A DNA stretch of 64,000 nucleotides, taken from the NCBI GenBank assembly GCA_030681595.1, contig JAUXSB010000061.1, forward strand, positions 5,392-69,391. Direction: 5' to 3'. How positions within the stretch are numbered: position 1 is the stretch's first letter; the number at the start of each line of letters is the position of its first letter. The notes under the pieces were generated by a model. That model ran no database searches and was not told where the DNA came from. It was given only the letters and a program-made list of their open reading frames with translations. This DNA comes from Candidatus Omnitrophota bacterium. GTDB lineage: Bacteria > Omnitrophota > Gorgyraeia > Ghiorseimicrobiales > Ghiorseimicrobiaceae. The position numbers and the translations under genes are program-made. This document shows positions 14,928 through 43,694 of the stretch, piece by piece.

Positions 14928-17339
14928 TTATATTACTATATTCACCAGCTTATTCGGCACAACTACAAAATTTTTGATTGGCTTGCCTTCAAGCCATTTT
15001 TTGACTATTTCGCGGGAAAGAACCAAATCTTTGAGGAGTTCTTTACCTATATCGACTTCGACTTCAATTTTATCTCTCACTTTACCGTTAATTTGTATAA
15101 CCAAGGCGGCCTTGTCTAACTTTAAGAATTCCGGATTAAACTCAGGCCATGAGGCGCAAGTAACGCTCTCTTTCTCTCCGAGCGAGTGCCACATTTCTTC
15201 GGCAATATGCGGCACAAACGGCGAAAGCAAAATTACCAGCGCCTTTAATACGTCTTTATTTGCCGCATCAGCCTTATAAATTTCATTTACCAATTCCATT
15301 ATTGAACTTATCGCTGTATTGAATTTAAACCCGCCTTCCATGTCTTCGGTTACTTTTTTAATCGTGCTATGCAGGCGGCGCAGAAGTTCTAGGCTCGGCG
15401 CTTTATCATCGGCTTTCTCCAATAAGCGCCAGACACGCATTAAAAATTTAAAAGAACCGTCTATTGCCGTATCATTCCATTCAAGCTCTGTCTCAGGGGG
15501 GGCAGCAAAAAGAATAAATAATCGCAGAGTATCAGCGCCATATTTCTTGATAATCCCATCAGGGTCAACAATATTGCCCTTTGACTTAGACATTACTTCG
15601 CCGTCTTTTAAAACCATCCCTTGCGTAAGCAGCTTATTAAACGGCTCATCTACCGAAGCTAAGCCTAAGTCTTTAAGAAATTTGGTATAAAAACGCGAAT
15701 AAAGCAAGTGCAAAATAGCATGTTCAATACCCCCGATATACTGGTCTACCGGCATCCAGTAAGCCGCTTCATTTTTGTCAAAAGGCGCTTCGCTAAACCT
15801 TGGTGAGCAAAAACGCAGGAAATACCACGACGAATCAATAAAAGTTGCCATGGTATCGGTCTCACGGCGCGCATGGCCTTTACATTTCGGGCATTTAACA
15901 TTGGTAAATTCTTCCACCTTAGAAAGCGGGCTGCCGCCTTCACCTGTAATCTTTATCTTTTCGGGTAGTTTTACCGGTAAATCTTCGTATGGCACACCGA
16001 CAACGCCGCACTTTAAGCAGTATATTACCGGGATAGGTGTACCCCAGTAACGCTGGCGCGAAATCAACCAGTCCTTAAGCCGCCAATTAGTAGTAATTTT
16101 ACCAATGCTTTTTTTCTCCATCCACTGGGCAATTTTTTCCTTGGCCGGATAATTTCTCGACCCGTCAAACTGCCCAGAATTTACCAAATAGCCTATCCCC
16201 TCATGCGCTTCAGTCATACTATCAACTGAAAGAATAGATTCATCGTCCAATCCCGGCTGAATTACTATGCGCATTGGCAGGTTGTGTTCTTTGGCAAAGA
16301 TAAAATCGCGCTGGTCATGTGTAGGGACCGCCATAATTGCCCCTGTCCCATATTCCATCAATACGTAATCCGCGATAAAAACCGGAATAATTTCATTATT
16401 TACGGGATTTACAGATTTTATTCCCTTGAGTTCAATACCGGACTTGTCTTTTTCTATGCGTTCCAGCCTGGTCTTTTTTTTCGCATTTTCAATATAGCCT
16501 GATACCTCTTTTATATTTAATATTTTATCTTTTATCTTTTCTATTATTTTATGTTCCGGAGCTAACACAATATAAGTTGCCCCAAAAATAGTATCAGCGC
16601 GGGTGGTAAATACCGGAATTATAGTATCGCTGTTTTCTAAGCGAAAATAAATTTCCACCCCACTACTTCTGCCAATCCAATTGTATTGCATGGCAATTAC
16701 GCGGTCCGACCAATGTTTTAATTGGGCCAAATCTTCTAAAAGCGCATCCTGATACTGGGTAATCTTTAGATACCACTGCTCCAAATCCTTTTGCAAAACC
16801 GGCGTATGGCACCTCCAGCATCCACCGTAAATTACTTCTTCATTTGCTAAAGTTGTTTCACAGCTGGGGCACCAGTTTACGCTGGATGCTTTTTTATAAG
16901 CAAGGCCGCGCTCCATCATCTTTAAGAATATCCACTGGTTAAAACGGTAATATTCAGGGTCACAGGTTGCTAATTCCCGTTCCCAATCATAAGAAAAACC
17001 CATCCGTTTAAGCTCAACCTTCATCCAGTCCATGCATTTATATGTCCAATCTTTAGGATCAGAGTTATTTTTTATGGCGGCATTTTCCGCAGGCTGGCCG
17101 AAAGCGTCAAACCCCATAGGATGAAGCACATTAAATCCGCATATCCTCTTATAACGCGCTACGACATCCCCGATAGTGTAATTGCGCACATGGCCCATAT
17201 GTATCCTGCCTGAAGGGTAGGGAAACATTTCCAGGCAATAGAATTTTTTACGCGTGTAGTCCATTTTGGCGCGGAAAATTCCCTTCTCCTGCCAGAACTT
17301 CTGCCATTTAGGTTCAATTTGTGAAAAATCGTAAATCAT
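14928..17339 (-). CDS. leuS: Leucyl-tRNA synthetase
   Basis: 803 aa with the HMGH motif ([12 protein letters not shown]), the KMSKS motif (VMSKSKGN) and a CP1 editing domain. Confidence 0.95.
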
Positions 17340-32091: not shown

Positions 32092-32463
32092 TTATGCCTC
32101 TTATTATTATTCTTGATAAAATCCTATTTTTCGGGGCTCTAAAGAAATATCCCCCGGCTCTGATTTATTGTAGTAGCTAGAGGTATTTTTGTCAACCCCG
32201 TTAGAAATTCCCTGCCATGGCTAATCTTTCTTTGCAAATAAACTCTCTTGAAGCAGTTTCCAATATCCGGTTTTAACCTTTACAATAGTATATAAGAATT
32301 TTCTAACGGGGTCAATATATATTCGCTATTTGCATTTTTGAAGCTATTTTGCTTAACTCTATACCGAACAATGAGTTATATAAAAAAATGCTTTTGGTAT
32401 ACCTCTTGAAAAAACATGCTTTATAGGGTATACTTATAATGTAAAAGGTAAAATATAACTGTA

Positions 32464-33664: not shown

Positions 33665-33697
33665 AAAAACCCGCTTTAGAAAGGCGGGTTTTTTATT
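33665..33697. terminator. Bidirectional rho-independent terminator between the secreted-protein genes and folE
   Basis: aaaaacccgctttagaaaggcgggtttttt. Confidence 0.55.
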
Positions 33698-34257
33698 TAC
33701 CTGGAATTAATTAAGGCTAAAGTTTCCGCCCGCGTCTTCTGGTTTTTCTTAAATACTCCCCTGACCGCGGAAGTAACCGTTAAGATACCGGGCTTTTTTA
33801 CTCCACGAAATGTCATACAAAGATGTTCTGCCTCAATTACTACCATACACCCTTGAGGCTTTAGTTTCGACATAATGATGTCGGCGATTTGTGTTGTTAA
33901 GCGTTCCTGTACCTGCGGGCGCTTAGATAAGACATCTACCACGCGCGCTAGCTTACTTAATCCGGTAACCCTGCCCTGTTTAGGAATATATGCCACGTGC
34001 GCCTTTCCGATAAACGGCAGGAGATGATGTTCGCAGCAGCTATAAAGCGGTATACCTTTAAGTAAAATTATCTCTTCGTGCTTCTGGTCTAAGACAACTT
34101 CTAATTCCTTTTCGGCGCTTTCTTTAATCCCGGAAAATATCTCTTCGTACATTTCAGCTACCCTACGGGGAGTCTCCAACAGGTCTTTTCTTTTCGGATT
34201 TTCCCCTATCGCTTCTAAAATTTCCCTTACTGCTTTCTCGATTTTCTTTTTATCCAC
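33697..34257 (-). CDS. folE: GTP cyclohydrolase I
   Basis: 186 aa with ...[10 protein letters not shown]...GK.HVAYIP..., the canonical FolE active-site region. Confidence 0.85.
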
Positions 34258-34351
34258 GTCATCCTCGCTTCTTACCAGCCATAGTGACGATACCCGCTAC
34301 GTAACCGTAGCCATAAAACGATACGGGCTTCGTTACCATAACCATTACCGA

Positions 34352-35764
34352 TTACTTACCAATACAGAATTCTGAAAATATCTTTTCCAGTAAATCCTCG
34401 GAAAAATTTTTTCCGGAAACGGTATCGAAAGAGCCTAAAGCGCCTTTGATGTCCTGAGCAACAAACTCCACCGATACCTTATTATCCAGTGATTTTAAAG
34501 CGCTGTCTATAAAATTCTCTGCCTCTTTTAAAAGTTCAATATGCCGAAGATTACTTACCAGCGCGGATTCCGATTTTATGACCTTGCCGCCAAATACCAA
34601 ATCCGCAATCGCCTCTTCCAATAAACCTATATTTTGTAGTTTTTTAGCTGAAAGCCCAATCACGTGCTTAAATATTTCTTCAATTTTTATTTTGTCGATT
34701 TTTTGCCGAAGATCTATTTTATTTATAATCGCGATAATTTGCTTTTTCCTTAATTTTTTAATTAGCGCTTCGTCATCTTTGGTTAATTTTTGGCTGCCAT
34801 CAAAGAGCAAGATCACTAAATCCGCAAACCCAATGTGCCGTTTTGACCGCGACACCGCCTTTTTCTCTACTAAATCCCGCGGCTCAATAATTCCGGCGGT
34901 ATCCACAATCCTTACCGGTATTCCTTTTATATCAATAATTTCCTCTATAGTATCGCGGGTCGTGCCGGAAATGGATGAGACAATTGAGCGCTCTTGTTTT
35001 AAGAGCGCGTTTAGAAGAGAAGACTTGCCTACATTTGGTTTTCCACAGATAACCGCCTGAATACCGTCGCGCAATACCTTACCATGCTTAGATGATACCA
35101 AAATGCCTTTTAAAGCGCCATTGACTGCGTTAAGTTTTTTAAAGGCTTCTTTTAAATTCAGCACGCCAATTTCTTCCTCAGGAAAATCAATATTTGCTTC
35201 TAATATAGCAAGCGCATCTAATAAGCCTTTACGCAGCCTATTTATTTGGTTGGATAAAGTACCCCTTAGCTGTTCTGTCCCGATTTTTAAGGCCGAATCG
35301 GTCTTTGCGCGGATAATATCCAGAACCGCCTCGGCCTGCGCTAAATCAATCCTGCCGTTTAAAAAAGCTCTTTTGGTAAACTCTCCTGGCTCGGCAAGCC
35401 GTGCCCCATTTTCTAAAACTAAATCCGATACGGCGCGCATAGCCATAATCCCACCGTGGCAATTTATCTCCACAACATCTTCTTTGGTATAGCTCTTAGG
35501 CTTCCGCATTACGGTAAGCAAAACTTCATCGATTATTTTTAATTTCTGGTTTCTGGCAACTGGTTTCTGGTTTCTCTCGACAATCCATCCATAATGCACA
35601 GTATACGCCTTAAAGCCAGATGGTTTCTTGCCGCCTTTAGCAACAAAAACCCTATCGGCAATTTTTAGGGCGTCTTTTCCGCTGATACGCACAATCCCGA
35701 TGCCCGCCTCGCCCAACCCCGTCCCCATCGCCGCAATTGTGTCGGTTAAACCTAAATTACGCAT
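34352..35764 (-). CDS. mnmE: tRNA modification GTPase MnmE
   Basis: N-terminal MRNLGLTDTIAAMGTG..GIGIVRISG, G-domain GKPNVGKSSLLN, and the C-terminal CIGK motif; 470 aa. Confidence 0.9.
   Translation of the reverse strand: MRNLGLTDTIAAMGTGLGEAGIGIVRISGKDALKIADRVFVAKGGKKPSGFKAYTVHYGWIVERNQKPVARNQKLKIIDEVLLTVMRKPKSYTKEDVVEINCHGGIMAMRAVSDLVLENGARLAEPGEFTKRAFLNGRIDLAQAEAVLDIIRAKTDSALKIGTEQLRGTLSNQINRLRKGLLDALAILEANIDFPEEEIGVLNLKEAFKKLNAVNGALKGILVSSKHGKVLRDGIQAVICGKPNVGKSSLLNALLKQERSIVSSISGTTRDTIEEIIDIKGIPVRIVDTAGIIEPRDLVEKKAVSRSKRHIGFADLVILLFDGSQKLTKDDEALIKKLRKKQIIAIINKIDLRQKIDKIKIEEIFKHVIGLSAKKLQNIGLLEEAIADLVFGGKVIKSESALVSNLRHIELLKEAENFIDSALKSLDNKVSVEFVAQDIKGALGSFDTVSGKNFSEDLLEKIFSEFCIGK
35543..35577 (-). 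repeat. Heptamer tract (tttctgg units) inside mnmE
   Basis: tttctggtttctggcaactggtttctggtttctc; it encodes VARNQKPVARNQK. Confidence 0.7.
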
Positions 35765-35848: not shown

Positions 35849-36199
35849 TTATTGCTTGCCTATGCCTTTTAAAACTTCTTTAATTGAATGCGCCAGTATG
35901 GGTATTTCTTCCTTTACCGTTTTCCATAAAATCTCTACATCAACGCCGAAATATTCATGAATCAACTTATTCCTCATCCCGGACATTTTTTTCCAGGGGA
36001 TATCGGGATATCTATGCCTTAGTGCTACAGGGATATTTTTGGCCGCCTCGCCTATTACCTCAATACTTCTTACTACCGCATTTATGGTTTTCTTATCTTT
36101 TGCAAAATCATTAAAATCCATACCTTCGATAAAACTATTTATCTCATTGGTAGAAACAAGGATGTCTTTTATATAATCTCTATAATCCCGCTTTTTCAT
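35849..36199 (-). CDS. hepT: HepT-like (DUF86) toxin, nucleotidyltransferase substrate-binding family
   Basis: 116 aa with the R(x4)HxY-like motif RNKLIHEYFGVD. It overlaps the upstream MNT gene by 4 nt. Confidence 0.75.
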   Translation of the reverse strand: MKKRDYRDYIKDILVSTNEINSFIEGMDFNDFAKDKKTINAVVRSIEVIGEAAKNIPVALRHRYPDIPWKKMSGMRNKLIHEYFGVDVEILWKTVKEEIPILAHSIKEVLKGIGKQ

Positions 36200-36489
36200 A
36201 TATATACGGTTTCTTTCAGGATATATCTGCCGATTACCGGCTTTAAAGCCTTTTTGGATACCAAATCAACCTTTACGCCAAGCAAACGCCTAAGAAACCC
36301 CTCTAAATCCATAAACTCAAACATTCCTATGGGTTCCTTAAATTCCACAAGGACATCAATATCGCTTTTTGCCTTTTGCTCGTTTCTTACATAAGAACCA
36401 AATACGCCTATTTTCTTAACCTGATACTTTTCTGCCAATAAACTTTTATTCTTGCCTAGAGTTTCTTTTATGGTCTTTAAAGTTATCAT
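36196..36489 (-). CDS. mntA: MNT-like minimal nucleotidyltransferase antitoxin
   Basis: GVFGSYVRNEQKAKSDIDVLVEF, the GSx9-13DxD nucleotidyltransferase motif; 97 aa. Confidence 0.8.
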   Translation of the reverse strand: MITLKTIKETLGKNKSLLAEKYQVKKIGVFGSYVRNEQKAKSDIDVLVEFKEPIGMFEFMDLEGFLRRLLGVKVDLVSKKALKPVIGRYILKETVYI

Positions 36490-37276: not shown

Positions 37277-38737
37277 TCAGTGCGGAGAATAGAAACTTCC
37301 GTTGTTTATCGCTTGTCTTGCCTCCCCCACCACAAACAACGAACCCGTTACCAAAATTAAATCTTTTCTATCGGCAATTTCTTTTGCTTTCTCTATTGCC
37401 TCTCTAACATCTTTAGTTAAATATATTTCAGCTTGCAGCTTGCAGCTTGCAGCTTGCAGCTTGATATGTTCCGCCTCCGCCGCCCGCGGGCTATTCGCCT
37501 TAGTCAAGATAACTTCATCCGCCATCGGAAAAAACTCGCTACATATTCCCTCAATATCCTTATCTTGGCAAACCCCTAAAACTAAGATTAACCTTTTATA
37601 TTGTCCTCCGGAGGCGGATCCGCCTTCGGCGGAAAAATTATGCTTAATCGTTTCTTTTAACGCCTTTGCCGATGCCGCATTCTGCGCCCCGTCTAATATA
37701 ATCCAAGGATTTTTACTAACAACTTCACATCTCCCCGGCCAAACCGTATTATAAATCCCTTTTCTGATGGAATCGACACTAATATTGACGCCATTAAATC
37801 GCAATGCCTCAACCACCCCCACTGCCGTAGCCGCATTCACCAATTGATGTTTGCCTAAAAGTTTTATTCTTAAATTCTTATACTCACTAAAAATCCCTCG
37901 TATCTCAAACTTACTTATTTTGTATTTATTTTTGACTTTTGACTTTTGACTTTTGACTTTATAAATTATATCTTTCCCCACCTCATATAATTTTGCCCCC
38001 ACCTGCCTGCACCTATTCCTAATTACCTCGGCTGCCCCTTCCTCCTGCGGCGCACTGATTACTACCGAGGGACGAGGGACGAAAGACGAGAGACGAAAAT
38101 TCTTAATAATTCCGGCTTTTTCTCTGGCAATTTTCTCAATAGTATTGCCCAAAAGTTGAGTATGCTCTAAACTTATCGGGGTAATTGCACAAACTAAAGG
38201 ATTGACTACATTGGTAGCATCCAACCTTCCGCCTAAGCCGGTTTCCAAAACCACAAAATCTGCCTTTTTTTCTTTAAAATAAACAAAGGAAAGCGCGGTA
38301 TAAACCTCAAAGAAAGTAAGCGAACCGTATTTTGAATTTTTATTAAATTTATCTGTCTTTGGCTTTAATTCAGAAACTAACCGGCAAAGTGCCCGCCTTG
38401 GAATCATCCCTTCAAACTCGGGGCTCGGGGCTCGGGGCTCGGGGCTCGGTAACAAAATTCGTATTCGTTCACGAAAATCCGATAGATGCGGCGAGGTATA
38501 CAAACCGGTTTTATATCCCGCCTCACGTAAAATATAAGCACAAAAGGCACAGGTTGAACCTTTGCCTTTTGTGCCGGCAACATGAATACATTTAAACGCG
38601 CCTTGAGGATTGCCTAAAATTTCTAGCAGCTCTTTTATGCGCTCTAATTTAATTAAACGTTTATAATGATATTGGGATTTTTTTTCGTAGTTAACGAAAG
38701 ATTCTAAATAGCGGATTGCTTCGGGGAAAGATAACAT
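37277..38737 (-). CDS. folC: Folylpolyglutamate synthase/dihydrofolate synthase with several low-complexity in-frame inserts
   Basis: P-loop GTKGKGST and the Mur-ligase fold; 486 aa. The inserts are encoded by heptamer repeat tracts (see repeats). Confidence 0.85.
   Translation of the reverse strand: MLSFPEAIRYLESFVNYEKKSQYHYKRLIKLERIKELLEILGNPQGAFKCIHVAGTKGKGSTCAFCAYILREAGYKTGLYTSPHLSDFRERIRILLPSPEPRAPSPEFEGMIPRRALCRLVSELKPKTDKFNKNSKYGSLTFFEVYTALSFVYFKEKKADFVVLETGLGGRLDATNVVNPLVCAITPISLEHTQLLGNTIEKIAREKAGIIKNFRLSSFVPRPSVVISAPQEEGAAEVIRNRCRQVGAKLYEVGKDIIYKVKSQKSKVKNKYKISKFEIRGIFSEYKNLRIKLLGKHQLVNAATAVGVVEALRFNGVNISVDSIRKGIYNTVWPGRCEVVSKNPWIILDGAQNAASAKALKETIKHNFSAEGGSASGGQYKRLILVLGVCQDKDIEGICSEFFPMADEVILTKANSPRAAEAEHIKLQAASCKLQAEIYLTKDVREAIEKAKEIADRKDLILVTGSLFVVGEARQAINNGSFYSPH
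37437..37473 (-). repeat. Tandem heptanucleotide tract (cttgcag x ~5) inside folC
   Basis: cagcttgcagcttgcagcttgcagcttgcagcttga; it encodes KLQAASCKLQAE in frame. Confidence 0.8.
37930..37960 (-). repeat. Tandem heptanucleotide tract (ttttgac x 4) inside folC
   Basis: ttttgacttttgacttttgacttttgacttt; it encodes KVKSQKSKVKNKYK. Confidence 0.8.
38062..38098 (-). repeat. Degenerate heptamer tract (gagggac gagggac gaaagac gagagac) inside folC
   Basis: It encodes RLSSFVPRPSVV. Confidence 0.6.
38418..38449 (-). repeat. Tandem heptanucleotide tract (ggggctc x 4) inside folC
   Basis: cggggctcggggctcggggctcggggctcgg; it encodes PSPEPRAPSPE. Confidence 0.8.
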
Positions 38738-38741
38738 GTAT

Positions 38742-38766
38742 CATGTAACAGGTTACATGTAACAGG
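38742..38766. promoter_or_regulatory. Direct repeat catgtaacagg x 2 containing the perfect palindrome GTTACATGTAAC, immediately upstream of the folC start codon
   Basis: tcatgtaacaggttacatgtaacagg, 5-30 nt upstream of the ATG at 38737; a candidate operator. Confidence 0.25.
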
Positions 38767-38834
38767 ATATAAACTGCAAACAACAAAAATAAATTTTTAC
38801 ATGAAACGGGGCCTGATACGCGTAACGCACAAAT

Positions 38835-41237: not shown

Positions 41238-41473
41238 GAGATTTACCCCGTTAGAAATAATCCGCCGCGGGCGGATGTCTAGCTAATATAAACTTAAACA
41301 TAATTTATAGCTTCTCTAAAAATCTATTGCCCCAAAATGCTTCTGTTGCTATCTCTAACGGGGTTAATTAAAAGGCGTGCCTTACTTTGTTATTTTAAAC
41401 CGAAAATACGAATTGCGGTTATATTATAAAGGAAAACGGGGTAGGCGTCAACAAATAGTTAAAGGGCAGACGA

Positions 41474-42523
41474 TTAAAACCTATATTTTAATTCTGACCA
41501 GAACAACACCTGCGTAAGTTTTGTAAATTGGTCTTTATCCCATGCTGGATTACGAGTCTCATCCCAGGTTATTCCGTCAATCCTGGCAAATGTGCCGTCT
41601 AAGCCCAATCCAAAATTCCAATTATGCATAAGGCCCCAAATGCCTTCGATGCCAAACATAAAAGCATATTTAGGCTTATCGTAATCGCCATAGAAAGTTA
41701 AAGACCGCAATAAATGATTATCCACATCTTTGGCAGTCGGTAATGGAGAATATTTAAGATTCATGCTGAATTTAAACTCTTTGCGCAATATATCGGCGGC
41801 CAGGCCAACATACGGAAAGTAGTATTGAATTTTATATGTTCCGATGTGTTCATCTTGATACGACATAACTCCTAAGATTCTATCGTATAAATCGTATAAA
41901 TCGTAATCAAACCTCTCGTATTTATAACCTATCAACGCGCCCAACTTTATTCCGTCGGAGGCCAATAACGCCAACGGCTCTATGTTTCTGGGCGCAATGC
42001 CTTCATAAAAATCATACCGCACATACCCCTCGGCAATAACAGCATCCATGTCTGCCCTTGATTCGGTAGAAGATATTAATGTTGCGCTAAACCAATCTTT
42101 ATCCGTCATCTTAGAGTTGGCTTCTTTGTCTATAGGGGCCCAGAAGTCAATATTTAAAGAAAATTTTTTAAAACCGGCGTTAACATTCGCCCCGCCCATC
42201 CAGTTATCAAAGGGAAACATTAATTCGCTTACATGGTTATCAAAATCATAAGTGGTGTCTCCGGCGATATAGCCTATTTTAAGCGTAACCTCTAATTCAA
42301 TCTCGTCTAACGTCTCGCCGATAATTTTATGCCTTTTAAAAAACGGGCTGGAAACCGATTCCTCTTCCGCTCGAACCGTCCTGGCAAGCGCTGGTTCGCC
42401 TTTGAGTACGTCTAACGCATCCTGAATTGCTGTTTCTCTTGAATCAGAATAAGAAAAAACAAAAGGGGGAATAAGTAAGCCTAAAATCAAAAATGCAGAT
42501 ACTAGAGTATTTGATTTATTCAA
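41474..42523 (-). CDS. Putative outer-membrane beta-barrel protein
   Basis: Probable TTG start at 42523, overlapping the kamA stop; the track ORF extends further through kamA. It has a signal peptide and a C-terminal …SELKYRF with a terminal Phe. Confidence 0.4.
   Translation of the reverse strand: MNKSNTLVSAFLILGLLIPPFVFSYSDSRETAIQDALDVLKGEPALARTVRAEEESVSSPFFKRHKIIGETLDEIELEVTLKIGYIAGDTTYDFDNHVSELMFPFDNWMGGANVNAGFKKFSLNIDFWAPIDKEANSKMTDKDWFSATLISSTESRADMDAVIAEGYVRYDFYEGIAPRNIEPLALLASDGIKLGALIGYKYERFDYDLYDLYDRILGVMSYQDEHIGTYKIQYYFPYVGLAADILRKEFKFSMNLKYSPLPTAKDVDNHLLRSLTFYGDYDKPKYAFMFGIEGIWGLMHNWNFGLGLDGTFARIDGITWDETRNPAWDKDQFTKLTQVLFWSELKYRF
41883..41909 (-). repeat. 9-nt tandem repeat (atcgtataa x 3) inside an OMP gene
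   Basis: It encodes YDLYDLYDR. Confidence 0.6.
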
Positions 42524-43694
42524 TGTAGGTATATATTTTTCCCTTATAGTTCCTAAGGGTATAGCGCCCCTTGTCCTGAGAAAGGAGATAATTCGGGCCA
42601 ACGGGAATTTTACCTCCGCCGCCGGGGGCATCAACTACGTAAGTGGGAACGGCATAACCCGAAGTGTATCCACGCATCTTTTCAATAATGTTTATACCGA
42701 CGGCAACGGGTGTCCGGAAATGCGCGGTACCTTTTACCGGGTCACACTGATAGATATAATACGGCCGCACTCTCACTTTGAGCAGCTCATGCATGAGTTT
42801 GCGCATAATATATGGCTTATCGTTAATCCCGTTTAATAATACAGTCTGCGAACCTAAAGGAAAACCCGAATCAGCAAACATTCCCATTGCCTGCCTCACC
42901 CTTTTTGTAATCTCGCGTGGATGGTTAAAATGCAGGCTTATCCAAATGGGCGAGTACTTTTTTAGCATGGTAACTAATTTTTCGGTAATCCGCTGCGGAA
43001 GCGTTACCGGCACGCGGCTGCCAATACGCAAAAATTCTACATGCGAAATACCGCGAATAGCCTGAATAATTTTTTCTAACTCGTCGTCTTCCAGCATAAG
43101 CGGGTCTCCGCCGGAAATGAGTACGTCGCGGATTTTATGGTTAGACTTAATGTAATCTACCGCCTTAGATAAATCAAACGGCTTATGCTCTTTTTCGCCG
43201 ACAATTCTGCGCCGCGTGCAATGACGGCAATACATCGCGCACTGCTCTGTCGCCAGGAGTAAAACCCTATCCGGATAACGGTGCACCAACCCCGGCACGG
43301 GAGAATCCCTGTCTTCGGCGCAAGGGTCCACCATTTCATGAGGAGCTATATTAAATTCTTCCGCCAGAGGAACAGCTTGGCGCCTTATGGGGCACTGTGG
43401 ATCTTCGGTATCCATTAATGTCGCCCAATAAGGGGTAACGGAAACTGCGAGGCGTCCGCGGCTGCGGCGGATGCCTTCCTCTTCTTGCGGAGTAAGCTGA
43501 ATAACCTGGGCTAACTGCTCTTTAGTGTGAATGCTGTTTTTTACCTGCCAATGCCAGTCTTCCCACTCTAAAGGAGAAATATCTTTAAAAAGGCTTATCT
43601 CGCTGTAATCAACGGGAAAAGTTTTGCGCCGCGCCGGAGCCGCAGAAACATTCTCTGCTTGTGGCTTCTCCAAAACCTGGGGGTTATTGGCCAA
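42516..43694 (-). CDS. kamA: Lysine 2,3-aminomutase family radical SAM protein
   Basis: CAMYCRHCTRRR radical SAM cluster in the typical KamA context; 392 aa. Confidence 0.8.
   Translation of the reverse strand: MANNPQVLEKPQAENVSAAPARRKTFPVDYSEISLFKDISPLEWEDWHWQVKNSIHTKEQLAQVIQLTPQEEEGIRRSRGRLAVSVTPYWATLMDTEDPQCPIRRQAVPLAEEFNIAPHEMVDPCAEDRDSPVPGLVHRYPDRVLLLATEQCAMYCRHCTRRRIVGEKEHKPFDLSKAVDYIKSNHKIRDVLISGGDPLMLEDDELEKIIQAIRGISHVEFLRIGSRVPVTLPQRITEKLVTMLKKYSPIWISLHFNHPREITKRVRQAMGMFADSGFPLGSQTVLLNGINDKPYIMRKLMHELLKVRVRPYYIYQCDPVKGTAHFRTPVAVGINIIEKMRGYTSGYAVPTYVVDAPGGGGKIPVGPNYLLSQDKGRYTLRNYKGKIYTYIE

What the first reader, a model, noticed from the sequence alone, without database searches (positions are those of the whole stretch)
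37430..38450. Multiple in-frame tandem heptanucleotide repeat tracts inside folC, with more in mnmE
Four separate tracts of 4-5 copies of a 7-nt unit (cttgcag, ttttgac, ggggctc, degenerate gaNNgac) lie inside the folC coding sequence. Each preserves the frame and encodes a low-complexity insert (KLQAASCKLQAE, KSQKSKVKNKYK, PSPEPRAPSPE, RLSSFVPRPSVV). mnmE carries a similar tttctgg tract (35543-35577), and an OMP gene carries a 9-mer tract. Heptamer tracts are classic slipped-strand phase-variation substrates. Finding them inside essential biosynthetic genes is odd. They may represent a genome-specific class of expansion segments or mobile micro-repeats.
Basis: seen in the sequence. Interest (0 to 1): 0.6.

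Follow-up and report, generated by a model that had tools for sequence, protein, structure and literature searches.

The report
Frame-locked heptanucleotide repeats in folC loops
A folate enzyme gene (folC) and a tRNA-modification gene (mnmE) of an uncultivated Omnitrophota bacterium carry short 7-base tandem repeats in surface loops; relatives have different repeats at the same spots, and in one relative the loss of a single repeat unit breaks the reading frame, so these housekeeping genes carry built-in mutational on/off hot spots.

Summary
folC (37277-38737, minus strand) holds three perfect and one imperfect 7-nt arrays of 4.4-5.0 copies. mnmE holds one imperfect array. Shuffled sequence gives 0.05 perfect arrays where 3 are seen.

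The arrays are not specific to this genome. In 120 Omnitrophota FolC orthologs the same loops carry 7- or 8-nt arrays with different units. Loop lengths fit "empty loop plus three units": 4 aa against 11 aa (period 7) or 12 aa (period 8). The predicted structure places them in low-confidence loops.

Arrays are about 9 times denser in folC than in other ORFs, about as dense as in non-coding DNA.

Two contigs 99.4% identical differ by exactly one AGGCGCA unit. The shorter allele splits folC into 108-aa and 373-aa ORFs. Further split alleles at this loop occur in other lineages.

Best explanation: slipped-strand microsatellites in permissive loops, kept in frame by selection, acting as frameshift hot spots. 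Whether the switching is adaptive is open. The closest known case is the neuO heptanucleotide repeat. I rate it a new variant of a known kind. The "mobile micro-repeat" idea is not supported for the arrays.

The parts
37277..38737 (-). folC (folylpolyglutamate/dihydrofolate synthase), 486 aa, intact ('ON') allele
   Evidence: ORF list and translation. PDB 1o5z E=1.4e-62. Pfam Mur_ligase_M and Mur_ligase_C. 100% identical to an NCBI Omnitrophota MAG protein.
38417..38449 (-). Site A array. Coding strand (CCGAGCC) x4.7, perfect, gene nt 289-321. Encodes PSPEPRAPSPE, directly after the conserved RERIRIL strand.
   Evidence: A 13-aa gap lies opposite it in T. maritima FolC. pLDDT is below 50 at residues 100-104. 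All 120 orthologs have a loop here, mostly 12 aa, with 7-aa periodicity. The one-unit polymorphism in a relative is at this site.
38405..38407 (-). ATG of Met111 in the conserved FEGM motif, 10 nt after array A. After a -1-unit shift the stop overlaps it as ATGA. After a +1-unit shift the stop lies 4 nt upstream. It is a possible re-initiation codon (inference only).
   Evidence: Simulated +/-7-nt alleles. In L167, L170 and L171 the second ORF was called starting at this Met.
38066..38096 (-). Site B array. Coding strand (YYTCGTC) x4.4, imperfect, gene nt 642-672. Encodes FRLSSFVPRPS after GIIK.
   Evidence: pLDDT is below 50 at residues 216-221. Ortholog loop lengths are 4 aa (19 orthologs), 11 aa (31) or 12 aa (24).
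37930..37960 (-). Site C array. Coding strand (AAAGTCA) x4.4, perfect, gene nt 778-808. Encodes KVKSQKSKVK in a beta-hairpin loop.
   Evidence: pLDDT is below 50 at residues 265-273. Anaerolineae folC genes carry 7- or 8-nt arrays at the equivalent position.
37604..37633 (-). Site D insert (SAEGGSASGG). GC-rich and palindrome-containing (GGCGGATCCGCC at 37613-37624). Not a heptamer array; it is a second class of loop insert.
   Evidence: pLDDT is below 50 at residues 370-378. It is present or absent, or varies by indels, between close orthologs.
37429..37463 (-). Site E array. Coding strand (AAGCTGC) x5.0, perfect, gene nt 1275-1309. Encodes KLQAASCKLQA in the C-terminal domain.
   Evidence: L083 and L084 carry the related units AAGCTGC/AGGCTGC at the same site.
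34352..35764 (-). mnmE (tRNA modification GTPase), 470 aa
   Evidence: Translation. Pfam TrmE_N, MnmE_helical and MMR_HSR1.
35543..35575 (-). mnmE array. Coding strand (AGAAACC) x4.7, third unit diverged. Encodes ERNQKPVARNQKL in an N-terminal-domain loop.
   Evidence: Five relatives have arrays with other units at the same loop. L166 has an empty 4-aa loop there.

Best explanation
The tracts are heptanucleotide (in relatives sometimes octanucleotide) microsatellites sitting in permissive, disordered surface loops of FolC and MnmE.

They change length by slipped-strand gain or loss of whole units. A 7- or 8-nt unit shifts the frame, so purifying selection keeps only alleles whose net insert is three units (21 or 24 nt, that is 7 or 8 aa). 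This is why nearly all arrays have 4-5 copies.

Repeated contraction and re-expansion keeps arrays near-perfect while the unit sequence drifts. Orthologs therefore share the site but not the unit. Out-of-frame alleles arise naturally and truncate or split the protein, so the arrays act as mutational ON/OFF hot spots.

Shown: the arrays, their loop location, site conservation with unit turnover, the three-unit length rule, and one natural one-unit frameshift allele. Inferred: slippage as the cause, homogenisation by contraction/expansion cycles, and tolerance of OFF intermediates. No adaptive function of the switching is claimed. The preference for period 7 is a general, unexplained bias of prokaryotic repeats.
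For: 1. Arrays are real and far beyond chance.
2. They lie where distant FolC structures have gaps and where the AlphaFold model has pLDDT below 50. The encoded peptides are enriched in P, Q, S, H, R and T and depleted in I, F, Y, L and V.
3. A codon alignment with four relatives of 70-73% aa identity shows a 7- or 8-nt array of about 4-5 copies in nearly every relative at each of the four sites (at site C one has a palindromic insert instead and one an interrupted array). Units are different, and flanking codons are conserved. Some relatives share related units, for example AAGCTGC/AGGCTGC at site E and CCTCGTC/CCTCGCC at site B.
4. Across 120 orthologs, lag-7 self-identity of the loops is 24.9% against 7-8% after shuffling. 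Lag-8 self-identity at site B is 18%. Other lags sit at background.
5. Site B loops are 4, 11 or 12 aa long. Period-7 loops are 11 aa in 24 of 29 cases. Period-8 loops are 12 aa in 13 of 14 cases. This equals an empty loop plus three units.
6. L167 and L168 are 99.4% identical over 1869 nt and differ by exactly one AGGCGCA unit at site A. The 4-unit allele splits folC into 108-aa and 373-aa ORFs with no other indel.
7. Array density per kb is 0.14 in folC, 0.016 in other ORFs and 0.17 in non-ORF DNA. Period 7 dominates in both coding and non-coding sequence. This fits a general mutational process filtered by selection.
8. L165 and L166 are 92.6% identical at the nucleotide level. One has an empty site B and the other a perfect (AGCTGTC) x4.4 array, so gain or loss is recent.
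Against: Direct length polymorphism was verified at DNA level in only one pair of contigs, and not in the window's own population. No reads were available.

Stepwise slippage must pass through frameshifted intermediates. That is hard to reconcile with an essential gene unless OFF alleles are tolerated.

No empty (about 5-aa) state of site A is seen among 120 orthologs. Contraction/expansion cycling at that site is therefore not demonstrated.

The concentration in folC, mnmE and (in relatives) purH, three neighbouring folate-linked genes, is not explained by loop permissiveness alone.

The preference for 7 nt is unexplained. The arrays show no hairpin propensity that would promote slippage.
Confidence: 0.7

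Rival explanations
1. Adaptive contingency loci. The arrays are maintained by second-order selection as reversible frameshift switches. These would turn folC and mnmE off and on (phase variation) in a host- or partner-dependent lifestyle.
For: Unit length is not a multiple of 3, and arrays are kept near-perfect over long divergence. A one-unit frameshift allele was assembled as the consensus in a sister sample. Independent split alleles at the same loop occur in L170, L171 and the P0125 contig, with intact neighbouring genes. The P0026 species has the intact protein on at least 13 contigs and a 368-aa C-terminal fragment on 7. The neuO precedent shows that a heptanucleotide repeat in a coding sequence can be ON only at multiples of 3 (PMC13001214).
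Against: Copy numbers are minimal (4-5) and nearly invariant. Classical contingency loci have long, variable tracts (neuO has 3-53). There are four tracts spread through one gene rather than one near the 5' end. The genes are core metabolic ones, not surface or host-interaction genes. Site B is empty in about 20% of orthologs, so that array is dispensable. My search could only find truncations near site A, so ascertainment is biased. The L170 lesion is a nonsense codon, not a slip.
Confidence: 0.2
2. A dedicated or processive repeat-generating process adds several units at once. Candidates are templated re-priming during break repair or polymerase stuttering. Selection then keeps the in-frame (+3-unit) products.
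For: Nearly all arrays have 4-5 copies, and period 7 is preferred in non-coding DNA as well. A preference for four units in mostly intergenic heptamer repeats of Xanthomonas and Nostoc is reported (PMC4692102). This process would remove the need for frameshifted intermediates.
Against: The only directly observed change is a single unit. No candidate enzyme was identified. The non-coding sample here is too small to show a deficit of 2-3-copy arrays. The coding copy-number distribution is explained by frame selection alone.
Confidence: 0.07
3. Mobile micro-elements. The arrays are inserted copies of small mobile repeats, analogous to Rickettsia palindromic elements or cyanobacterial small dispersed repeats.
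For: Other small inserts in these genes behave this way. A 57-nt NPVRN...ISNGV palindromic element and a 21-nt CLTGRQA-type palindrome are present or absent between orthologs of at least 91% identity. The terminal motif of the 57-nt element recurs in the window. A few units recur at different sites or genes: AAATCCG, AAGTGTC(A) and AAGCTGC.
Against: Array units are nearly all different. They are non-palindromic and unstructured. Units are related between close relatives at the same site. Arrays obey the three-unit rule tied to their own period. No dispersed family of identical arrays exists in 64 kb.
Confidence: 0.02
4. Assembly or sequencing artefact.
For: None specific. Repeats can in principle be mis-assembled, and one related contig (L169) is riddled with frameshifts.
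Against: The arrays are 31-35 nt, shorter than reads and assembly k-mers. The ORFs stay open. Equivalent arrays occur in independent assemblies from NCBI, ENA, JGI and Logan.
Confidence: 0.01

Closest known systems
neuO heptanucleotide VNTR (E. coli K1 capsule O-acetyltransferase, CUS-3 prophage)
   Same: A 7-nt tandem repeat lies inside a coding sequence and is translated in all three frames as a 7-aa repeat. The full-length protein is made only when the unit count fits modulo 3. Length changes arise by strand slippage, and ON and OFF alleles occur in nature (PMC13001214).
   Different: neuO has one long, highly variable tract (3-53 units) at the 5' end of an accessory, phage-borne surface-modification gene in a pathogen. 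Here there are four minimal tracts (4-5 units) in internal loops of a core enzyme. Their sites are conserved across a phylum-level clade and the unit sequence turns over.
Simple-sequence-repeat contingency loci of Haemophilus, Neisseria and Campylobacter
   Same: The repeats are not multiples of 3 and lie in coding sequence, so gain or loss of a unit frameshifts the gene.
   Different: Those use 1-5-nt units in many copies, mostly near the 5' end of surface or restriction-modification genes. Adaptive switching has been shown experimentally there. None of that is shown here.
Borg tandem repeats (aaTRs) in Methanoperedens extrachromosomal elements
   Same: Perfect, fast-evolving tandem repeats inside ORFs create disordered protein segments. 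They have flanking partial repeats, and several repeats can occur in one ORF (PMC9879509).
   Different: Borg repeats in ORFs have unit lengths divisible by three. Here the units are 7 or 8 nt, and the frame is kept only by three-unit quantisation.
Over-represented heptameric SSRs of bacteria (cyanobacterial STRR; GGGNATC repeats of Xanthomonas and Nostoc)
   Same: Period 7 is favoured over other long periods. About four units are preferred. Arrays are conserved in position between relatives while varying in length (PMC4692102).
   Different: Those are family-specific G-rich units, mostly intergenic and under-represented in coding regions, and are interpreted through G-quadruplexes. Here the units are diverse, non-G-rich, unstructured and inside genes.
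Rickettsia palindromic elements and other in-frame selfish inserts
   Same: Short inserts are tolerated in-frame in surface loops of housekeeping proteins.
   Different: RPEs are dispersed copies of one palindromic element. The arrays here are locally generated direct repeats with unique units. The resemblance applies better to the 57-nt and 21-nt palindromic inserts seen in relatives. This comparison rests on my own knowledge; no paper was read for it.

Membership tests
FolC / Mur-ligase family (host gene) | Mur ligase middle and C-terminal domains, P-loop GTKGKGS, and homology to solved FolC/FPGS structures | tested here: met
   PDB 1o5z E=1.4e-62, plus 2vor and 1w78. Pfam PF08245 and PF02875.
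SSR-mediated phase-variable (contingency) locus | Tandem repeat in the coding sequence with a unit length not divisible by 3 | tested here: met
   7-nt units at four sites in folC and one in mnmE.
SSR-mediated phase-variable (contingency) locus | Unit-number polymorphism between near-identical genomes that switches the reading frame | tested here: met
   Met in a relative, not in the window's own population. L167 and L168 are 99.4% identical and differ by one AGGCGCA unit, which splits folC.
SSR-mediated phase-variable (contingency) locus | High-frequency, reversible switching within a clonal population, with a phenotypic consequence | not testable with these tools
   Needs read-level data or culture.
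SSR-mediated phase-variable (contingency) locus | Long, copy-number-variable tract, typically near the 5' end of a surface, host-interaction or R-M gene | tested here: not met
   Copy number is 3.6-5.0 in the folC-internal arrays detected (one 5.6-copy array at the 3' end of L121 may lie beyond the stop). Sites are internal. The genes are core metabolism or tRNA modification.
neuO-type heptanucleotide coding VNTR | Heptanucleotide unit translated in three frames, with an intact ORF only for one residue class of unit number modulo 3 | tested here: met
   7-aa periodicity of the loops. The three-unit length rule holds. The one-unit-shorter allele is out of frame.
neuO-type heptanucleotide coding VNTR | Homology of gene or repeat unit (AAGACTC) and a prophage context | tested here: not met
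   The units are different and the genes unrelated.
Borg-type amino-acid tandem repeats | Repeat unit length divisible by three in ORFs | tested here: not met
   Units are 7 or 8 nt. Borg rule taken from PMC9879509.
Heptameric SSR families (STRR, GGGNATC) | Genome-wide family with a shared consensus unit, predominantly intergenic, with G-quadruplex potential | tested here: not met
   Every array has its own unit. All window arrays are intragenic. No structure signal was found.
In-frame mobile palindromic elements (RPE-like, SDR-like) | Dispersed copies of one conserved, usually palindromic element | tested here: not met
   Not met for the arrays. Partly met for separate inserts: site D, and the NPVRN...ISNGV element in relatives.

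The most novel reading that the evidence does not exclude
The arrays are maintained contingency switches in a folate-linked gene cluster (purH-folC-mnmE) of free-living or epibiotic Omnitrophota. At site A the 'OFF' alleles would not be null. Both shifted frames terminate at or 4 nt before the conserved Met111 ATG, and the -1-unit frame gives an ATGA overlap. Coupled re-initiation could then yield a two-piece FolC (about 108 aa plus about 375 aa) that reassembles across the disordered loop. The repeat would toggle between a fused and a split enzyme rather than between on and off.
Probability: 0.12. Interest if true: 0.8.

Novelty: new variant of a known kind. Interest (0 to 1): 0.55.

Why it matters
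Repeat-driven frameshift switching is regarded as a feature of surface and host-interaction genes in host-adapted pathogens. Longer-unit repeats in environmental bacteria are usually dismissed as neutral. Here 7- and 8-nt repeats sit at conserved loops of core enzymes across an uncultivated phylum. They are quantised to three units, and natural frameshifted alleles exist.

If this is general, three consequences follow. First, gene calls and pseudogene counts in metagenome-assembled genomes will be affected at such loci. Second, these loops offer natural markers of very recent divergence. Third, core metabolism (folate retention, tRNA modification) may be heterogeneous within populations of nano-sized bacteria.

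It also gives a clean natural system for asking why period 7 is favoured in prokaryotic repeats.

Tried and rejected
The metagenome-contig scan gave few close relatives.
- P0146/L169 looked like a site A frameshift allele. The contig has many fragmented genes and is a noisy assembly, so it was discarded.
- The P0125 contig shows a split folC in its gene table, but no DNA was available.
- A search with the MnmE N-terminus returned only 7 fragments on short contigs, which is inconclusive for mnmE OFF alleles.
- I suspected folC-flanking intergenic DNA was a special hot spot. Its density (0.25 per kb) is similar to non-ORF DNA in general (0.17 per kb), so the idea was dropped.
- Hairpin or structure propensity of the arrays shows no signal, with z-scores from -1.3 to +0.6.
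- GGCGGATCCGCC as a dispersed element: only 3 hits in 64 kb. One is intergenic and one is the AccA GEGGSGGA motif, so it is not a widespread family here.
- The leuS tract at 16507-16540 (TCTTTTA x4.9, 85% matches) is A/T-rich low complexity in a lysine-rich stretch. It was not counted as part of the phenomenon.
- The Elhai 2008 paper on cyanobacterial small dispersed repeats could not be read.
- The literature searches found no description of such arrays in Omnitrophota.
Full report
**What is in the window.** The ORF at 37277-38737 (minus strand, 486 aa) is FolC. It matches the T. maritima FolC structure 1o5z at E=1.4e-62. It carries Pfam Mur_ligase_M and Mur_ligase_C. It is 100% identical to an NCBI protein from a Candidatus Omnitrophota metagenome-assembled genome.

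Tandem Repeats Finder and an exact-run scan find three perfect 7-nt arrays and one imperfect one inside it:
- 37429-37463, x5.0, perfect
- 37930-37960, x4.4, perfect
- 38417-38449, x4.7, perfect
- 38066-38096, x4.4, imperfect

mnmE (34352-35764) has an imperfect array at 35543-35575. These three perfect arrays are the only perfect tandem repeats with period >=5 and >=3 copies in the 64 kb. Dinucleotide-preserving shuffles give a mean of 0.05.

**Where the arrays sit in the protein.** Against solved FolC structures, the array-encoded segments fall opposite alignment gaps. An AlphaFold2 model built on 26 orthologs (mean pLDDT 79.6) has pLDDT below 50 at residues 100-104, 216-221 and 265-273. These correspond to array sites A, B and C. 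Residues 370-378 are also below 50 and correspond to a fourth, palindrome-containing insert that I call site D. Site E replaces a short connector in the C-terminal domain. Loop peptides across orthologs are enriched in P, Q, S, H, R and T and depleted in I, F, Y, L and V.

**The relatives give the main result.** FolC lengths in Omnitrophota range from 439 to 515 aa. In an alignment of 26 orthologs the variable segments coincide with the window's array sites.

I fetched DNA for four relatives of 70-73% aa identity and made a codon alignment. At each of the four sites nearly every relative also has a tandem array of about 4-5 copies, of period 7 or 8. At site C, L081 carries a palindromic insert instead and L083 an array interrupted by a hairpin-like insert. 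The units differ:
- Site A: CCGAGCC, TCACCTA, GGGCACCA, GAGAGTCA
- Site B: YYTCGTC, AAGTGTC, CCTCGCC, GAGCACCA, GGGTACA

Flanking codons are well conserved. Some pairs share related units: AAGCTGC/AGGCTGC at site E in the window, L083 and L084, and CCTCGTC/CCTCGCC at site B in the window and L082. The arrays are therefore inherited and drift rather than being independent insertions. The mnmE array behaves the same way. Five relatives have arrays with other units at the same N-terminal-domain loop, and one relative (L166) has an empty 4-aa loop.

**Statistics over 120 orthologs.**
- The site A loop is 12 aa in 50 of 109 parsable orthologs.
- Lag-7 self-identity is 24.9% at sites A and B, against 7-8% after shuffling. 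Lag 8 reaches 18% at site B. All other lags are at background.
- Site B loop lengths are strongly clustered: 4 aa (19 orthologs), 11 aa (31) and 12 aa (24).
- Period-7 loops are 11 aa in 24 of 29 cases. Period-8 loops are 12 aa in 13 of 14 cases.

The filled state therefore equals the empty state plus three units (21 or 24 nt). That is the smallest frame-preserving expansion of a unit that is not a multiple of 3. It explains why nearly all folC arrays have 4-5 copies (3.6-5.0 in those detected). A pair of genes 92.6% identical at the nucleotide level differ by an empty site B against a perfect (AGCTGTC) x4.4 array, so gain or loss is recent.

**How special is folC?** I surveyed 167 folC-centred loci from many phyla, about 2.2 Mb in total.
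- Arrays of at least 3.5 copies are dominated by period 7, with 8 and 9 next.
- Density per kb is 0.14 in folC, 0.25 in its 150-nt flanks, 0.016 in other long ORFs and 0.17 in non-ORF DNA.
- folC is thus about as permissive as non-coding DNA and about 9-fold above other coding sequence.
- The flanks are not special compared with intergenic DNA in general.
- Anaerolineae folC genes carry arrays at site C, so the phenomenon crosses phyla.
- In 21-kb neighbourhoods of the close relatives, arrays occur in folC and mnmE or immediately beside them; the only other one found lies in a small gene just downstream of mnmE in L081.
- In two more distant Omnitrophota contigs an in-frame (GCAGAGA) x5.0 array sits in the domain linker of the adjacent purH.

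An excess of heptameric repeats in bacteria, and a preference for about four units, are already on record (PMC4692102). The cause is not known.

**Direct evidence for slippage and its consequence.** A search with the first 95 residues of FolC returned many short N-terminal fragments from Omnitrophota. Four cases were examined.
- P0121 ends ...GARRKAQGAILRE. Its contig L167 has folC split into 108-aa and 373-aa ORFs. The sister-sample contig L168 encodes the intact 483-aa protein. The two are 99.4% identical over 1869 nt and differ by exactly one AGGCGCA unit at site A (5 units against 4), with no other indel.
- L171, from an NCBI MAG, has folC frameshifted inside a complex site A repeat. Its neighbouring genes are intact.
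- L170 has an in-frame TGA inside the site A loop.
- The P0125 contig has a 106-aa plus 351-aa split, seen in the gene table only because no DNA was available.

In addition, the P0026 species has the intact 493-aa protein on at least 13 contigs. A 368-aa C-terminal fragment from the same species is on 7 contigs, and a 107-aa N-terminal fragment ends in site A. One apparent case (L169) was discarded because the contig is full of frameshifts. My search could only detect truncations near site A, so no frequency can be derived from it.

**Interpretation.** The best-supported mechanism is slipped-strand microsatellite dynamics in permissive loops, filtered by frame.
- Shown: whole-unit gain or loss occurs in nature.
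- Shown: only in-frame alleles give full-length protein, which yields three-unit quantisation.
- Inferred: contraction and re-expansion keep arrays homogeneous while units drift.

Stepwise slippage must pass through frameshifted alleles. The recurrence of split folC in assemblies suggests such alleles are tolerated at least transiently. That tolerance would also explain why arrays accumulate in folC and mnmE rather than in strictly essential genes.

Whether the switching is exploited as true phase variation is open. In favour are the persistence of near-perfect arrays and the abundance of split alleles. Against are the minimal and invariant copy number, the presence of several internal tracts per gene, the core-metabolic function, and the dispensability of the site B array. 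The arrays have no hairpin propensity. They are not dispersed copies of one element. The mobile-element reading is therefore rejected for them.

**A speculative extension.** Simulated +/-1-unit alleles of the window gene terminate 1-44 nt after each array. Only at site A is there a nearby restart codon. The stop of the -1-unit frame overlaps the conserved Met111 ATG as ATGA. The stop of the +1-unit frame lies 4 nt upstream of it. In L167, L170 and L171 the downstream ORF was called from exactly this Met. A two-piece FolC made by coupled re-initiation is conceivable but untested. The FEGM motif varies at synonymous positions, as expected for ordinary protein-level constraint.

**Comparison with known systems.** The closest known case is the neuO heptanucleotide repeat of E. 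coli K1. That is a 7-nt coding repeat which is ON only at multiples of three and which slips in nature (PMC13001214). It differs in having one long 5' tract in a phage-borne accessory gene. Borg tandem repeats also create disordered segments, but their units in ORFs are divisible by three (PMC9879509). Classical contingency loci use 1-5-nt units in surface genes. I found no description of such arrays in Omnitrophota.

**Verdict.** This is a real and reproducible feature, a new variant of a known kind, of moderate interest. Its main open questions can be answered directly with read-level data.

Noticed in passing
window 32195-32312 and 41245-41364: Two elements of about 120 nt are bounded by the inverted motif ACCCCGTTAGAAAT...ATTTCTAACGGGGT (4 motif hits against 0.54 expected). 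The second lies between the ychF-like gene and the omptin gene. In relatives a 57-nt version of the same termini is inserted in-frame in folC as NPVRNT.AI.GE.KISNGV. It is present or absent between orthologs of at least 91% identity (P0034/P0035, P0084/P0107). It looks like a MITE-like family that can land in coding sequence.
   Followed up: partly
window 37604-37633 (folC site D); relatives P0047/P0271, P0049/P0274, P0028/P0062: A second class of in-frame micro-insert consists of short GC-rich palindromes. Examples are GGCGGATCCGCC (encoding GGSASGG) and a 21-nt CLTGRQA/LPAGRQA-type insert. They can nest inside heptamer arrays, and they differ between orthologs that share a 90%-identity cluster or are 94% identical.
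   Followed up: partly
L091 3141-3175 and L099 1869-1903 (relatives): purH, the gene next to folC, carries a perfect in-frame (GCAGAGA) x5.0 array (LQAESREQRAESRE) in the linker between its two domains. Three neighbouring folate-linked genes (purH, folC, mnmE) therefore host arrays in this clade. The window's own purH has none.
   Followed up: partly
window 37277-38737 compared with L081 and L083: folC is a mosaic. The window and L081 are 92-93% identical at the nucleotide level over the first 80 codons, up to site A, and then drop to about 62%. The window and L083 reach 86-91% identity only in the C-terminal part around site E. This suggests recombination between lineages with breakpoints near the arrays.
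   Followed up: no
window 35849-36489: A HepT-like/MNT nucleotidyltransferase toxin-antitoxin pair sits between mnmE and folC. Relatives have other small cassettes (ParE-type, 23S_rRNA_IVP) at this variable spot.
   Followed up: partly
window 41882-41905: A perfect 9-nt repeat (ATCGTATAA x2.7, encoding YDLYDLYD) lies in an omptin-family outer-membrane protein ORF (41474-42634). Its unit is divisible by three, so it is a different case from the heptamers.
   Followed up: partly
window 34287-34345: A 31-nt direct repeat (x1.9, 78% matches) lies in the short spacer between folE (33697-34257) and mnmE.
   Followed up: no
L081 9932-10000 and L166 2283-2365 (relatives): Paired period-9 arrays of opposite sequence sense lie in the purH-folC spacer, for example ATTGAGTTT x4.9 followed by TAACTCAAG x3.0. 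These could pair as a long hairpin. The window's spacer (38738-38834) instead has a 12-13-nt direct duplication (catgtaacagg).
   Followed up: no
L167 compared with L168, folC codons 161-167: Nine substitutions are clustered within 20 nt in otherwise 99.4% identical genes. The in-frame allele has Cys in place of the near-invariant Gly of ETGLGGRLDAT. This is probably a short recombination patch.
   Followed up: no
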